NCBI RefSeq assembly: GCF_032062105.1
Contig: NW_026923547.1
Location: 124,001 to 188,000, forward strand
Direction of reading: 5' to 3'
Length of the DNA: 64,000 nt
Origin: Saccostrea cucullata
Taxonomy: Eukaryota
Each line of letters opens with the position of its first letter. Position 1 is the first letter of the stretch. This document shows, one piece after another, positions 45,301-54,300 of the stretch. Made by a program: the position numbers.

Positions 45301-48300
45301 GGCTAAGAAAACTGCTTATAAATTGCAAAAGGTTTGTTCATCCATCAGCAATCTGGGGAAGGTTAAGTAACTGCTCTAGGACTGCTTAAATGTTTAAACT
45401 GTTAAGGCTAAGAAACTGCTTAATAACTGCCTTCCACTTTGCCATGGGCAGTTTATTTATTTTCCTTTCCAACTCTTTGCTGTTATAATGCAAGGTTTAT
45501 TAGTAAAAAGAAAATCTTCATACAGTTCTTTAATGGTAAGCAAATTCTATTTCAGGCTACAGATTTTCTTGAATTATTCGCGGACATGAGTGAAGTCAAT
45601 GCTGTCCTTGGACAGTGCCAGACCGACTTTATTGAAATCCTCTACGATCCGTCAGGAATGGTCTGCCCCGTGCTTGGATGTAAAGGGACAAAGTTTCCCT
45701 CCAAATCAAAATTCTCCCGACACTGGGAGGAGAGACACAAACTGTATGTCACCAAATTTATATGTTCCGTTAATGGGTGTAGCGCGGAGTGTAGGCGGAA
45801 ATCAGACATGAGGACCCACATTCGCCGAGCACATGAGAGCAATCAGGACAGAGTGGAATTCATACTCACTAAGTGTGATGTGATCCAGAGGGAGAACAAG
45901 GGTTATTTAGACCCAGGTCTATATATATTTAAAGGAGGATGCCTGAGAGAAACTACTGACCCAGTAGTGACCCAGGAACAGGAGGAGTCCACTACAGATG
46001 ATGGAATAACGCCGGTGGATGTGGAGAGTAGATGTTCTACTCAGACTGAGCCCACTGCACCAACAACCGACCTCAAGGAAGAAGAGCTGGAGACCAGCAG
46101 CAAGAAGAGAAGGCTTACTCTACAGGAGTACAGAGACAGGGAGGTCCCAGATCACCGGTCTACAGGGACCCAAACAACGTGGGTGAACCTACCCAGCCTC
46201 GACCTACCAAACCTCCCAGAGGCAGGCAATTCAGAGGAACTGCAGTCGTGCCTCATGTGGCTGTGCAACAGCATGGACGTAGTAGGACGAGCGAGAGCAT
46301 TGGTGAAAAAGAGGATAGAGGACGGTGAGCGAACGGAACTGGAGCGAGAGAGGGAAATGAGGCGTCAACTGGAGAAGAAGAACCGGGAATTAGAGGGCGA
46401 GATCAGGAAGTTGCGAGCGATGGACACACTGTTTGAGGAGTGAATGCGACCAATTGTGATTAACTGTGTAAATATGTGAAAGTTGTGGAATTGTTTATTT
46501 ATTGTTTAAAAAGTGTGTTTATTACCGTACATGTAATTGATTGAATGTCTGCTATCTTAAAGTTTCTGAATGTTGATACATGTGTATTCTAATTTTATAA
46601 TAATTGAATTTTAATGTATGTTACTTTGAAGTAATACTTGTATTTATTAGATATACATGTGATTTTATTTGGACTAATGTGTATTTTCATCCACATTAGA
46701 TCTTAAGGAAGGGGGAGTGTGGTGGTTTTTACATGTATTTAATTAAAATTGTATGTAATTACAGTGTATTTATGTATATGTGCCTTATTTTATTCATATT
46801 TCCCTCTATTTGTCATTACTTGTTGTTTAGAGTTATTCCCCTTTGTTTATAACCCGTTCGGGTTGGGCGCGCCCGGGTCTATAGTACCCGGCCGGGGTTT
46901 ACTATTATTATATGCTATGTATATTGTGTAATCAGAAGAGTCTACATTATCATTAATTACTGATCAGACGTATTTTTGGGGACTGGGGCTAAATTTCTAC
47001 AATGGTAATTATTGCATTCTTGGATTTTATATGATATTGTTTCATATCTTTTACGTTTGTTTGTAAATTGTAAATATTGCAACAGAATATAGTAATTCTT
47101 TAAACACTGAAATTCTTGTTATTCTTTTATCCTTTGAACTCGGACTATATGTACGGGACTAACCCCTAGACAGTCCCGTTACAATATAAATCTGTATATT
47201 ACCTATAACCAGATAAAATTTCAAGGAGATATCGAGTTTTGTTAGTTTTCAATTGGTAATTATTTTTGACTGCAAAATAACATTACAAAAAAGGCCAGAA
47301 AAGATCAGCATTTAAAGTCCGCTCAGCATATCCTATTTGGAAAAATTCATGTTTTAACAATCTTTCCTTTTTTTCAATTATTGTTCTAGACCTGAGGTAA
47401 AGTGAAGAAATATTTGTAGAGGATGGAGGGTAGTACAAGGGACCGATTTAAATCCCTGCCAGATGGAGAGGTCCTTCCTCCATATTTCCTCACCCCACAA
47501 TCTGCCCCAGGAGGAATTCATCTTAAGAAAGTTGTCTTTCTTGGATATACTGACATGGCTGCAGCTGGAAGGTTTTTCTTGGACAAATTTCAAGAATTTT
47601 AGTTCACTCTTTATCTGAGTTATATATTTTGCTTTTTAACTTTTTAGCTTTGAATGAAGATTTTCAAATAACTTAAAACCTCTACAATGCTTACTAAAAT
47701 CAGTCTTTGAAAACAGCATCAAGAGTTATGCCCCTTTATACATTGGGATTACTTTGTTCATGGGAACTTGATCGAAAAGGTTTTACTGACTTTTATTAAT
47801 ACTACTGTAGATTCCTTATTTTTTGTGATTACTTATTATCGCGAATGGGCTCATCAACGTCAAATCTCAAAAGTAATAATTAGCGAATGAATAATTGGTC
47901 AAGAGATTTTACATAGATTTCAGCACCATAAAAATGAAGGCGAGTAATTTTATTTCGTGTGTGGTGCATAGTGTGGTGTGCTGAAATAACACGATAATTA
48001 ATTCCACATGTATATTTAGTAATCTACAGTATCAAGTGGAGCCATATCTTTAGGGGGGAAAAAATTCATCAAATCACCTTGCTCCCTCCCCCTCCAAAAT
48101 CAATCTAAAAGACATGCATACAACAGACATTTTTAATGGAGATGTGCAATGGTAATGGATTCTAAAAGGTAATAGCTTTACAAATATAGTCTCTTTAGCC
48201 TAATTCGTCCTGTTGCTTTGGTTTCCCGTCAAGTTGTCCTAATAAATGAAGCATCGATCTGATATCTGAAATCTATTATAAAGCCTAATTGATTGATCAG

Positions 48301-51300: not shown

Positions 51301-54300
51301 TAACATTTTTGGTGCAGTTTTTGGTGTAAAGATAACTATAAGCCCTATGTTGACCAAACTTACATGGATGGTACATCAAATACCAGACTTGCTTCGGATG
51401 CTGAATCTGACCTACATTTTCCCGTTGAGTGAACAGGTTAAAGTTTTTGGTGCAGGTTTCATTTCCAAGTTACTATGAGACATATAATGACCAAACTTGC
51501 ATGGATGGTACATCTTAGGATGTAGACTTGCTTCGGATGCTGAATCTGGCCTACATTTTTTTGAGTGAACAGGTTAAAGTTTTTGATGCAGGTTTCATTT
51601 CCAAGTTTCTATGAGACATATACTGACCAAACTTGCATGGATGGTACATCTTAGGATGCATACTACCAGTCTTGCTTTTATATATTTTCCGGTTGAGTGA
51701 ACAGGTTAAAGTTTTTGGTGCAGGTTTCATTTCCAATATATGAGACATATAATGACCAAACTTGCATGGATGGTACTTAGGATGCATATTACAAGAATGC
51801 TGAATCTGACCTACATTTTCCGGTTGAGTGAACAGGTTAAAAAGGTTTCATTTCCAAAATGAACCCTATAATGACTAAACTTGCCTGGATGGTACATCTT
51901 GCTACCAGACTTGCTTCGGATGCTGAATCTGACCTACATTTTCTGGATGAGTAAACAGGTTAAAATTTATGGTGCAGGATTCATTTCCAAGTAACTTTGA
52001 GCCCTATAATGACCAAACTTGCATGGATGGTACATCTCTAGGCTGGCTTCAGAAGCTGAAACACATTTTACATTAGTGAAAATGTTAGTTTTTTTATACA
52101 GGTTTCATTTCCAAGTAACTCTGAGCTCTATGTTGAACAAACTTGCATGGATGATACATCTTAGGATGCATACTAATGGACTTGCTTCAGATGCTGAATT
52201 CGAATACACAGATAATACCTAAAAGTTATGGGTGCAGGTCTATCACCAAGAAACTATAAGGCTTATATAAACCAAAGTTGCACAAATGATGCATCAAGGG
52301 ATGAAAACTCTCAATCTTGCTTCAGATGCTGGATTTTAATTACATTTTCATGATGAAGAACTAGTTTAAGTTTTTATATAGGTATATTCCAAAGTATCAA
52401 AATTGCATAAATTTTGCATTTTTGGATGTATACTTTTTGTTGGTTAATTGTGTGACTTAATTTGCCTTACTTAAAGACAACATTCGTTGAGGTGAGCTCT
52501 GTAATCTCTGATTACCTATGTTTGTTCCATATTACTAGTACTCCAAAAATTTCTCTATGATGAAAAAAATACATGTTGATTTGAAAACATATATGAACAT
52601 TTTTTTTTTAAAGTTAATTAGACCTTTGCATACATCTGTCATCACTGAAACTTTAAAGAAGCTTATACACAGATTTAAAATTACTATTTTCTAATATTAT
52701 AGATATAATATCATGGCATAGATGTTGTTTGACCATTTCATGCCAAAAAACATGAAATATACCGGTAATAGAAAGCAGTTTTAGAAACTTCTTTTATAGG
52801 GAGATTATTATAACTACCAATTTCAGGAAATTTTTGATTGACATATAGCCTAAAATTTTAAATTGAAAACAATGAAACTCTGTCCAAGCCCCTCTAAGAA
52901 ACTTTTCTCAGTTTGAAGATTTGCTATGTAAATGTCTTGTAATTTTGACAGTTTGAGGAAATGCCCTGTCACATTTTTACCTGCCCTGGCCATAAGGCAG
53001 TTCCTGGACCAGCCAATGACTACGATGGATCTTTTCAGGTATTCACAAGGGGGATAACTCTGTCAAATTTCTCAAAATACTCTTTCAGGTAGGAGGAAAA
53101 TGTTTTTCCAGTGCATTTATTATTTAATAGTAATTTCTGTATATATTTGTAGGCAATCACTCATTTTCATGCTGTGTTAAAGAAGTGGTCTAGACTCCAT
53201 TTTGATGAAGAATTCAGTCAGTCTCTGGTAAATGAAAGATGTACAAGAGTTCTAACATACTGTTTATTTGCATTACAGATAAAGACATTTCTTTTAAAAA
53301 AAAATGTATAAATTCTCAAGCATGAAGGATAAGGTGTTAAAAAAATTACCATATGATTATACATTGTATTTTACTATTGATATCAGTGTTTAAGCACTTT
53401 TCTTTTTCTCTATCTCTTATTACAACTACTATCAACCCATTCTTTATAATTTCAGACATATCGAGACCCTGGATCAGATTCAGATTTGATGTATGTTTAG
53501 TGTATGATGTTTTATCTCCTCAATAAATTTTAATACCATTATCTGTACAAGTAATATTATTCTTGAAGTATTTTATGTAGTATTTTTTGTACCTTTAAAG
53601 AAATTGACCTAAAATTTTTGCTTTGTATGACAAAAATACATATTCTTAGCTAAATGCAGAATTTTTGTTAAAAATCAAATGAAGGAGTTTCATAGTGTAA
53701 ATTTTATTCAAAAGTACTCCTACAAAATATATACATAAAAACATTTCACAAAGAATTCAGGGATGATTTAAATGTATGTGAATGAGTGAATGACTGTCAA
53801 TAGTTTGCAGTATGTTGAACTGAGATTTATCCTGTCCTCACAATAAAATCTGTGTTGTGCAGAGTGGATTTTTTTTTCATGAAAGTGTTGATGATGAGAA
53901 TTTTCAGCTCCTTTGCTACCTCTTACTCTGAAAAAAAAATACAGGCTTGTAAAATATACATAGGTATACATGTATGCATATAAAAACAATTATATATTTA
54001 AAAAAAAAATATTTCTAATTCTATTACTGAATTCAAATGAAGACTTTGATAACAAGATGTTTGTAAAACGCATGCCGCCCTCCTCCTAATAATTGGAATT
54101 TTTCTAAGTCCAAGGGGCATAATTCTATCCAAAACGATCATATCCAAACCCAAACTTGACCTAGGTATTCTTATGCTAAATCTGTATACCAAATTTCATT
54201 TCAATATGTGCAACCTTTGCAAAGAAAATGAACAGAAACTGCAAATAATTGGAATTTTTCTAAGTTCAAGGGGCATTACTTTGTTTAAAATTGCGTCGTA

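What the first reader, a model, noticed from the sequence alone, without database searches (positions are those of the whole stretch)
47423..53527. Hidden multi-exon gene: divergent proteasome-chaperone-fold protein ending in HbYX (…LMYV)
Seen: six small exons join in phase, end in DSDLMYV* and are followed by AATAAA; the ORF track shows only fragments. The pattern (VVFLGY..AA; helix HVADKILSLC + VKKLVILTT; DPFLSSLIQMIQ..MPCHIFTC) parallels the PAC1/PAC2 alpha/beta fold. Known: HbYX tails dock into 20S proteasome alpha-ring pockets (PAC1, PI31, Rpt ATPases). Identity to recalled PSMG1/PSMG2 looks low. Inference: it may be an additional, uncharacterised proteasome-binding paralog rather than the ortholog.
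Basis: partly seen in the sequence, partly recalled or inferred. Interest (0 to 1): 0.65.

Follow-up and report, generated by a model that had tools for sequence, protein, structure and literature searches.

The report
Oyster proteasome-chaperone-like gene with HbYX tail
This is a real eight-exon oyster gene for a small protein shaped like the chaperones that help build the proteasome core, ending in the short tail such proteins use to dock onto it; it looks like a little-studied third member of that group, not something new in kind.

Summary
The gene is real. Eight GT-AG exons (47423-53500, + strand, 783 nt, 260 codons plus stop) tile the 260-aa NCBI protein 'uncharacterized LOC125681297' of Ostrea edulis, with 227 of 254 aligned residues identical. 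The window is oyster DNA, not human, and has no N.

The exons were never joined. Window letters were searched exon by exon, and the O. edulis protein stood in for full-length tests.

That protein folds confidently (pLDDT 87). Its best structural matches are PAC2-family proteasome assembly chaperones: archaeal PbaA/PbaB-like proteins and the human and yeast PAC/Pba chains in 20S assembly intermediates. A jellyfish relative gives the same result.

The Hb-Tyr-X tail sits at the extreme C-terminus in 24 of 28 family members.

The family does not match Pfam PAC1 (0 of 44 members). Its PAC2 matches stay below cut-off, and it gives weak matches to plant-dominated DUF7894. The gene does not lie beside SYAP1, where mollusc PSMG1 is reported.

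Best reading: a third PAC-fold HbYX chaperone, probably the animal counterpart of plant PBAC5. A very divergent PSMG1 remains possible. This is a new member of a known kind.

The parts
47423..47571 (+). Coding exon 1. It has the ATG, 49 whole codons and 2 bases of a split codon. It encodes the N-terminal tail and first strand (..KKVVFLGYTDMAAAG).
   Evidence: 41 of 49 residues identical to P0001 residues 1-49; GT donor.
48559..48715 (+). Coding exon 2 (1 base, then 52 codons).
   Evidence: 47 of 52 identical to P0001 residues 51-102; AG acceptor and GT donor.
50201..50286 (+). Coding exon 3 (28 codons, then 2 bases). It encodes the strand and long helix (..HVADKILSLC..).
   Evidence: 25 of 26 aligned residues identical to P0001 residues 103-128; AG/GT.
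50379..50485 (+). Coding exon 4 (1 base, 35 codons, 1 base).
   Evidence: 31 of 34 identical to P0001 residues 133-166; AG/GT.
50988..51064 (+). Coding exon 5 (2 bases, then 25 codons). It holds the family-invariant Asp of ..MDPFLSS..
   Evidence: 22 of 25 identical to P0001 residues 168-192; AG/GT. D181 is invariant in alignment A1.
52952..53038 (+). Coding exon 6 (29 codons).
   Evidence: 25 of 29 identical to P0001 residues 193-221; AG/GT.
53153..53227 (+). Coding exon 7 (25 codons).
   Evidence: 24 of 25 identical to P0001 residues 222-246; AG/GT.
53456..53500 (+). Coding exon 8 (14 codons, then TAG). It encodes the flexible C-terminal tail.
   Evidence: 12 of 14 identical to P0001 residues 247-260; AG acceptor.
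53489..53497 (+). The HbYX motif codons (Met-Tyr-Val), directly before the stop.
   Evidence: Hb-Tyr-X sits at the extreme C-terminus in 24 of 28 family members. The tail block has mean pLDDT 57 in the model, which suggests it is flexible.
53522..53527 (+). AATAAA polyadenylation-signal hexamer, 21 nt after the stop codon.
   Evidence: Read directly. Its use as a signal is inferred.

Best explanation
The region is an intact eight-exon oyster gene for a 260-residue protein.

Shown:
- The protein folds as a single PAC2-family alpha/beta domain, the fold of proteasome assembly chaperones PAC1/PAC2, Pba1/Pba2 and archaeal PbaA/PbaB.
- The domain is preceded by about 36 low-confidence N-terminal residues.
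- It is followed by a flexible tail ending Met-Tyr-Val, which is an HbYX motif.
- The family occurs in molluscs and a cnidarian, and the tail is conserved across it.

Inferred:
- The tail inserts into a pocket between two alpha subunits of the 20S proteasome alpha-ring.
- The protein acts as an assembly chaperone or alpha-ring cap during core-particle biogenesis.
- It is neither the PSMG1 nor the PSMG2 orthologue. It is a third PAC-fold HbYX protein, most likely the animal counterpart of plant PBAC5. A review says PBAC5 joins PAC1-PAC2 in a trimer and docks at alpha4-alpha5.
For: Gene model: all exons match P0001, and two NCBI models of the same 260-aa length exist.

Fold:
- AF2 of P0001 with 28 sequences gives pLDDT 87.1 and pTM 0.82.
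- Foldseek against the PDB gives 71 matches at E<=1e-3. The top ones are 3GAA (E 1.6e-10), chains of human 20S assembly intermediates (8QYS_J, E 2.7e-9), PbaA (3WZ2), PbaB (3VR0) and chains of yeast precursor complexes.
- The jellyfish member P0052 (pLDDT 90.2) gives the same ranking.
- Pfam PAC2 PF09754 matches P0001 residues 40-212 against profile positions 3-177 of 215, at E 0.002.

Tail:
- HbYX is present in 24 of 28 members and Hb-Phe-X in 1 of 28.
- Human PAC1's Ile-Tyr-Thr inserts at alpha5-alpha6 and PAC2's Leu-Phe at alpha6-alpha7 (passages seen, PMC11327110).

Third lineage:
- Pfam PAC1 PF16094 matches 0 of 44 members at E<=0.1.
- The A1 profile finds 0 PDB sequences at E<=10.
- Both models match the 247-264-residue chains (TMq 0.56-0.68) better than the 269-281-residue chains (TMq 0.44-0.56) of the same human entries.
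- DUF7894 PF25428 gives weak matches in 11 of 44 members, one above cut-off (P0061, 27.5 bits against 27). P0061 is itself a direct phmmer hit of P0001 at E 5.4e-5.
- The Atlas lists plant DUF7894 clusters at ranks 2-3 with score 0.93.

Synteny:
- Mollusc PSMG1 is reported in a ZMPSTE24-Taxilin-HECA-SYAP1-PSMG1 block (passage in PMC10225492; figure legend in PMC4085046).
- Here the neighbours are an aldehyde dehydrogenase gene and BCAS2.

PBAC5 is described as HbYX-bearing, forming a trimer with PAC1-PAC2, and having homologous genes in fungi and metazoans (passage in PMC9105311).
Against: - No binding, expression or transcript data were available.
- All Pfam matches of the oyster proteins are below cut-off. 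P0001 scores 18.4 bits against PAC2's 25.8 and gives no DUF7894 match; P0010 gives none at all.
- The DUF7894 matches cover only the C-terminal third of that profile (positions about 140-230 of 242).
- That DUF7894 is the PBAC5 family is my inference. No paper holds the name, and the primary PBAC5 paper was not held.
- The nearest Atlas cluster (63 members, mostly Mollusca, score 0.96, TM 0.79) carries PAC1 in 14% and POC1 in 11% of its members. By structure, a plant PAC1 cluster (TM 0.69) appears and DUF7894 does not. The same cluster is first for P0061. If that cluster is this family's own, it points toward PAC1.
- One member (P0051) has a weak POC1 match at E 0.009.
- Which PDB chains are PAC1 and which PAC2 is inferred from chain length and recalled protein lengths.
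- The synteny test relies on Pfam detection in ORF fragments of 30 aa or more, and on a block reported for scallops and other spiralians, not for this oyster.
- I could not show a separate PSMG1 in this genome.
Confidence: 0.55

Rival explanations
1. It is the oyster orthologue of PSMG1/PAC1 (yeast Pba1), too diverged for sequence methods to see. It would pair with PAC2 and dock its HbYX tail at alpha5-alpha6.
For: - A review states that all eukaryotic PAC1/Pba1 homologues have a conserved C-terminal HbYX (PMC9105311). Human PAC1 has a canonical HbYX, whereas PAC2 ends Leu-Phe (PMC11327110).
- The nearest Atlas cluster for P0001 (0.96) and P0061 (0.94) is mollusc-dominated, with PAC1 in 14% and POC1 in 11% of members. 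A plant PAC1 cluster is a structural neighbour at TM 0.69.
- P0051 gives a weak POC1 match.
- The oyster proteins have a roughly 36-residue N-terminal tail of low pLDDT. This recalls PAC1's pore-threading N-terminus (PMC11327110).
Against: - PF16094 matches 0 of 44 members.
- The family profile finds no PDB sequence at E<=10, although human PAC1-containing entries are in the PDB.
- Two independent models are closer to the chains taken as PAC2 than to those taken as PAC1.
- Spiralian PSMG1 was recognisable enough to define an orthologous group, and it sits next to SYAP1. No SYAP1, HECA, taxilin or M48 signal lies within 47 kb upstream or 10 kb downstream.
- The N-terminal tail is not conserved across the family; several members start a few residues before the first strand.
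Confidence: 0.22
2. It is a PAC2-fold protein with a job unrelated to the proteasome, for example an enzyme-like or other binding role. On this reading the conserved Tyr-X end serves another partner.
For: - For the jellyfish model, the fold also resembles nucleoside phosphorylase and MTA nucleosidase structures at E about 1e-6 and TMq 0.45-0.53.
- Bacterial PAC2-family proteins of unknown function share the fold (2P90, 2WAM, 3MNF).
- The family has invariant or near-invariant charged residues: D44, R51 and D181 in P0001 numbering.
Against: - The best matches in both searches are proteasome chaperones, with higher TM.
- A hydrophobic-Tyr-X motif exactly at the free C-terminus in 24 of 28 members is the known signature of alpha-ring docking.
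Confidence: 0.1
3. It is the oyster PSMG2/PAC2 orthologue.
For: - The only Pfam match of P0001 is the PAC2 family.
- The models match the chains taken as human PAC2 best among eukaryotic chains.
- 14 of the 30 nearest Atlas clusters carry PAC2.
Against: - 0 of 28 members reach the PF09754 cut-off; the best is 25.4 bits against 25.8. By contrast, 94% of an arthropod PAC2 cluster carries the family.
- NCBI names both oyster proteins 'uncharacterized'.
- Human PAC2 ends Leu-Phe, not HbYX.
Confidence: 0.04

Closest known systems
[quoted passage not shown]
   Same: - It has a C-terminal HbYX.
- It is additional to PAC1 and PAC2.
- It is reported to have homologues in fungi and metazoans (PMC9105311 passage).
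- 11 of 44 family members give DUF7894 matches, one above cut-off.
- Plant DUF7894 clusters are Atlas neighbours at 0.92-0.93.
   Different: - The matches cover only the C-terminal part of the DUF7894 profile, and the oyster proteins themselves give none.
- Trimer formation with PAC1-PAC2 and alpha4-alpha5 docking are untested here.
- I could not verify the DUF7894 = PBAC5 link, because the primary paper was not held.
PSMG1 / PAC1 (human) and Pba1 / POC1 (yeast)
   Same: - It shares the PAC fold.
- It has a canonical HbYX at the C-terminus.
- The oyster members have an N-terminal extension.
   Different: - There is no PF16094 match in 44 members.
- No sequence-level hit to solved PAC1 was found.
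- Structural similarity is lower than to the chains taken as PAC2.
- The gene is not next to SYAP1.
PSMG2 / PAC2 (human), Pba2 (yeast)
   Same: These are the best eukaryotic structural matches, with TMq 0.56-0.68. There is a sub-threshold PF09754 match over most of the domain.
   Different: The match is below the family cut-off. The tail is Hb-Tyr-X, whereas the human protein ends Leu-Phe.
Archaeal PbaA / PbaB and Thermoplasma 3GAA (PAC2 family)
   Same: 3GAA is the top structural match (E 1.6e-10 and 3.4e-9). PbaB is listed in the PDB as an archaeal proteasome activator.
   Different: Sequence identity is 9-14%. These are archaeal homo-oligomers, whereas this is a eukaryotic single-copy gene.

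Membership tests
PAC2-fold proteasome assembly chaperone superfamily (PAC1, PAC2, Pba1/2, PbaA/B) | The single-domain alpha/beta fold of PAC2/PbaA | tested here: met
   Tested on the O. edulis orthologue P0001, not on the window's joined product. pLDDT is 87.1. There are 71 PDB matches at E<=1e-3, and the top ones are PAC2-family chaperones. The jellyfish member repeats the result.
PAC2-fold proteasome assembly chaperone superfamily | C-terminal HbYX (or Hb-Phe) docking motif at the free end | tested here: met
   The window ends Met-Tyr-Val before the stop. HbYX is present in 24 of 28 members and Hb-Phe-X in 1 of 28; 3 of 28 have odd, probably mis-modelled ends.
PAC2-fold proteasome assembly chaperone superfamily | Physical binding to 20S alpha-ring or precursors | not testable with these tools
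   No interaction data were available.
Pfam PAC2 family PF09754 / PSMG2 | Score at or above the curated cut-off (25.8 bits) | tested here: not met
   P0001 scores 18.4 bits. 6 of 28 members match at E<=0.1, and 0 of 28 reach the cut-off; the best is 25.4. The seven window exons taken alone give 0 matches.
PSMG1 / PAC1 (Pfam PF16094) | Sequence match to the PAC1 model or to solved PAC1 | tested here: not met
   0 of 44 members match at E<=0.1. The A1 profile finds 0 PDB sequences at E<=10.
PSMG1 / PAC1 | Position in the protostome ZMPSTE24-Taxilin-HECA-SYAP1-PSMG1 microsynteny block | tested here: not met
   The block is described in PMC10225492 and PMC4085046. Pfam on 305 stop-to-stop ORFs of the flanks finds calsyntenin, ShK, aldehyde dehydrogenase and BCAS2, and none of the block's genes. 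Caveats: only the window was examined, and exons under 30 aa were not scanned.
PSMG1 / PAC1 | Structure closer to PAC1 than to PAC2 | tested here: not met
   Chains of 269-281 residues give TMq 0.44-0.56, against 0.56-0.68 for chains of 247-264 residues. Which chain is PAC1 and which PAC2 is inferred from length.
PSMG1 / PAC1 | N-terminal tail that threads the alpha-ring pore (PMC11327110) | tested here: inconclusive
   The oyster proteins have about 36 low-pLDDT residues before the first strand. Several family members have almost none.
PBAC5 / DUF7894 (PF25428) | Match to PF25428 at or above its cut-off (27 bits) | tested here: inconclusive
   11 of 44 members match at E<=0.1, and 1 of 44 is above cut-off (P0061, 27.5 bits). 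P0001 and P0010 give no match.
PBAC5 / DUF7894 | Co-existence with separate PAC1 and PAC2 genes in the same genome; trimer with PAC1-PAC2; docking at alpha4-alpha5 | not testable with these tools
The primary paper was not held.

The most novel reading that the evidence does not exclude
Many invertebrate animals, at least molluscs and cnidarians, keep a third PAC-fold HbYX chaperone that vertebrates and yeast lack. It would work with PAC1-PAC2 as a trimer on the nascent alpha-ring, as reported for plant PBAC5. If so, the textbook five-chaperone pathway of animal 20S assembly would be a derived, reduced state.
Probability: 0.45. Interest if true: 0.55.

Novelty: new member of a known kind. Interest (0 to 1): 0.4.

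Why it matters
[quoted passage not shown] A conserved sixth, HbYX-bearing PAC-fold protein in oysters and jellyfish would give an animal system in which to study the PBAC5-type helper, which so far has been examined only in Arabidopsis. It would also help date when vertebrates lost it.

For genome annotation, it gives the 'uncharacterized' oyster loci LOC125681297 and LOC111133055 a testable functional label.

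Tried and rejected
- Pfam on the seven exons of 25-52 aa, each alone, gave 0 matches at E<=10. The pieces are too short.
- PDB sequence searches gave nothing relevant:
  - P0001 gave 5 chance-level hits, to mL48 and CEACAM, at E 0.23-1.4.
  - The A1 profile gave 0.
  - P0061 gave 0.
  - P0051 gave 1 irrelevant hit.
- NCBIfam on the 28 A1 members gave seven single-member hits at E 0.012-0.085, none relevant.
- Rfam on the whole window gave 0.
As a result, the organisms of 24 of the 28 family members stay unknown.
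- The profile search for named relatives returned only 11 proteins. The one new name was the jellyfish Rhopilema esculentum.
- Paper searches:
  - 'DUF7894' found 0 papers.
  - 'PAC5' found only plasmid-vector mentions.
  - A recalled Arabidopsis locus code found 1 irrelevant paper.
  - 'proteasome assembly chaperone 1' with 'oyster' found 0.
  - One search was badly built and useless.
  - 'PBAC1' with 'PBAC2' added nothing new.
- The primary PBAC5 paper and a recalled DOI for its forerunner were not held.
- I rejected the candidate exon 49823-49926. It is 104 nt, would break the frame, and has no counterpart in P0001.
- Human origin is rejected. The closest proteins are oyster proteins, at 89% identity to Ostrea edulis and 83% to Crassostrea virginica over the exons.
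- Not checked:
  - Supplements were closed. Table S12 of PMC10225492 and Supplementary Note 7.2 of PMC4085046 would name the mollusc PSMG1 genes.

Full report
**What the window is.** The window is AT-rich DNA (27-42% GC in 2-kb blocks) with small exons and long introns, and it holds no N. The closest proteins to the gene in question are NCBI models from the oysters Ostrea edulis and Crassostrea virginica. I therefore take the window for oyster DNA, nearer to Ostrea.

**Checking the observation.** Reading the sequence and the mechanical ORFs, I built a GT-AG model on the + strand.
- The exons are 47423-47571, 48559-48715, 50201-50286, 50379-50485, 50988-51064, 52952-53038, 53153-53227 and 53456-53500.
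They total 783 nt, which is 260 codons plus TAG.
- Three codons are split across junctions, and every intron is GT..AG.
- The last exon translates to TYRDPGSDSDLMYV followed by a stop. AATAAA lies at 53522-53527.
- A further AG/GT-flanked ORF piece at 49823-49926 would break the frame and has no homologue, so I left it out.

**How the spliced model was tested.** The window's 260-codon product was never assembled, searched or folded.
- Pfam on each of seven exons alone gave nothing.
- A database search with exon 2 alone, restricted to longer proteins, found P0001. This is 'uncharacterized protein LOC125681297 [Ostrea edulis]', exactly 260 aa.
- tblastn of P0001 against the window hits all eight exons and nothing else convincingly.
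- Exon-by-exon alignment tiles P0001 from residue 1 to 260, with 227 of 254 aligned residues identical.
- The C. virginica protein P0010, also 260 aa, gives 212 of 256.

The gene model is therefore confirmed by homology to two independent gene models. I had no transcript data. From here on, P0001 serves as the full-length stand-in.

**What the protein is.**
- P0001 has one sub-threshold Pfam match. It is to the PAC2 family PF09754, at E 0.002 and 18.4 bits against a cut-off of 25.8, but it spans residues 40-212 against profile positions 3-177 of 215.
- phmmer against 1.84 billion cluster representatives found 56 relatives at E<=1e-3, of which 31 are at E<=1e-10.
- I aligned P0001 with 27 of the 56 hits, those of 224-301 aa. 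I dropped 28 fragments under 200 aa and one 557-aa protein. This is alignment A1.
- With A1, AlphaFold2 gives a confident model: pLDDT 87.1 and pTM 0.82. The first 30 residues or so, and the last 10, have low confidence.
- Foldseek against the PDB returns 71 matches at E<=1e-3. They are led by Thermoplasma 3GAA (E 1.6e-10, TMq 0.59), chains of human 20S assembly intermediates (8QYS_J, E 2.7e-9; TMq up to 0.61), Pyrococcus PbaA and PbaB, and chains of yeast precursor complexes.
- A second model, for the jellyfish member P0052 with 24 of the 28 sequences (pLDDT 90.2), gives the same picture.

**The tail.**
- In A1, 24 of 28 proteins end in hydrophobic-Tyr-X exactly at the C-terminus, and one ends in hydrophobic-Phe-X. 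Three have ends that look like mis-modelled genes.
- Among the dropped fragments that reach the C-terminus, four more end HbYX and two end Hb-Phe-X.
- The literature I could read says that human PAC1's Ile-Tyr-Thr inserts between alpha5 and alpha6, and PAC2's Leu-Phe between alpha6 and alpha7 (passages in PMC11327110).
- A review says all PAC1/Pba1 homologues carry HbYX (passage in PMC9105311).

The mechanism I propose is inferred from these facts and was not shown here: a PAC-fold body sitting on the outer face of the alpha-ring, held by a flexible HbYX tail in an inter-subunit pocket.

**Which member of the group: evidence against PSMG1.**
- No member matches Pfam PAC1 PF16094: 0 of 28 in A1 and 0 of 16 further fragments, at E<=0.1.
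- A profile of A1 finds no PDB sequence at E<=10, although human PAC1-containing entries are in the PDB.
- Both models fit the 247-264-residue chains of the human entries (TMq 0.56-0.68) better than the 269-281-residue chains (TMq 0.44-0.56). By recalled protein lengths these are PAC2 and PAC1 respectively; that assignment is my inference.
- Mollusc PSMG1 is reported as part of a protostome microsynteny block, ZMPSTE24-Taxilin-HECA-SYAP1-PSMG1, which is intact in scallops (passage in PMC10225492; figure legend in PMC4085046).
- Pfam on 305 stop-to-stop ORFs of the flanks (150, 40 and 115) finds none of the block's genes. What it does find:
  - calsyntenin (- strand, 713-3144)
  - ShK domains (+ strand, 20127-21074)
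  - an aldehyde dehydrogenase gene (- strand, 28659-32307)
  - BCAS2 (- strand, 55233-61520)

**Evidence against PSMG2.** No member reaches the PF09754 cut-off, and both oyster proteins are named 'uncharacterized'.

**Evidence for a third lineage.**
- 11 of 44 members give weak matches to DUF7894 (PF25428), always over profile positions of about 140-230.
- One of these, P0061, is above cut-off, and P0061 is itself a direct phmmer hit of P0001 at E 5.4e-5.
- Plant-dominated DUF7894 clusters are Atlas neighbours.
- A review reports a third HbYX chaperone, PBAC5, in Arabidopsis. It forms a trimer with PAC1-PAC2, binds between alpha4 and alpha5, and has homologous genes in fungi and metazoans.

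I infer that DUF7894 is the PBAC5 family, but I could not verify it. No paper in the library holds that Pfam name, and the primary paper was not held.

**Evidence the other way.**
- The nearest Atlas cluster for both P0001 (0.96; TM 0.79) and P0061 (0.94) is a mollusc-dominated cluster in which 14% of members carry PAC1 and 11% carry POC1.
- By structure, a plant PAC1 cluster appears among the neighbours and DUF7894 does not.
- If that cluster is the family's own, it argues for a very divergent PSMG1.
Only four of the 28 have a source name: two oysters, the jellyfish Rhopilema esculentum, and one JGI 'hypothetical protein'.

I put the third-paralogue reading at about 0.55 and the PSMG1 reading at about 0.22.

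- It is a Ty3/gypsy-type LTR retrotransposon at about 37765-47183.
- Its long terminal repeats are about 470 nt and 99% identical (37765-38235 and 46716-47183).
- It has a gag-like ORF (38309-39790).
- It has a pol ORF (39850-43635) with the domain order protease, reverse transcriptase, RNase H, integrase.
- It has a third ORF of 334 aa without a Pfam match (45439-46443).
- The gag and pol ORFs are each uninterrupted as they stand (0 breaks counted in each). I cannot say whether the third ORF is whole.
- The 3' LTR ends 239 nt before the gene's ATG.

**Verdict.** The gene is real and intact. The fold and tail interpretation is confirmed on a close orthologue. It is a new, uncharacterised animal member of a known kind of protein, most likely of the PBAC5 type. 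I rate interest as moderate (0.4).

Noticed in passing
window 37765-47183 (+): A Ty3/gypsy-type LTR retrotransposon, the operators' 'virus-like stretch'. Its two roughly 470-nt LTRs are 99% identical. It has a gag-like ORF (38309-39790), a pol ORF (39850-43635; protease, RT, RNase H, integrase) and a third 334-aa ORF (45439-46443) without a Pfam match. Its 3' LTR ends 239 nt upstream of the chaperone gene's ATG, so it sits in or next to that gene's promoter region. Described only.
   Followed up: partly
window 49026-49235 and 51091-52485 (introns 2 and 5 of the gene): Two copies of a non-autonomous repeat element that share both ends (36-nt and 27-nt matches, 83-85% identical). The longer copy carries an internal tandem array of a 136-nt unit, 6.3 copies, at 51351-52174.
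   Followed up: partly
window 55233-61520 (-): Exons of a BCAS2 (pre-mRNA splicing factor SPF27) gene lie tail-to-tail with the chaperone gene. Its last exon is about 1.7 kb from the chaperone gene's stop codon.
   Followed up: no
window 28659-32307 (-): Exons of an aldehyde dehydrogenase family gene (Pfam Aldedh, E down to 1e-18), the nearest gene upstream beyond the retrotransposon.
   Followed up: no
window 713-3144 (-) and 20127-21074 (+): Calsyntenin C-terminal exons at the left end of the window, and two ShK-domain ORF pieces on the + strand.
   Followed up: no
window 47423-47530 (exon 1, first 36 codons): The N-terminal tail has low predicted order (pLDDT about 50). Even so, exon 1, which encodes it, is 42 of 49 identical to C. 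virginica, about the same as the gene overall at 212 of 256. Other family members lack a comparable tail. It may be an oyster-lineage linear motif.
   Followed up: no
window 54624-55157 and 55197-55565 (+): Two ORFs of 178 and 123 aa just downstream of the gene, with no Pfam match. They overlap the last BCAS2 exon on the other strand, and their nature is unknown.
   Followed up: no
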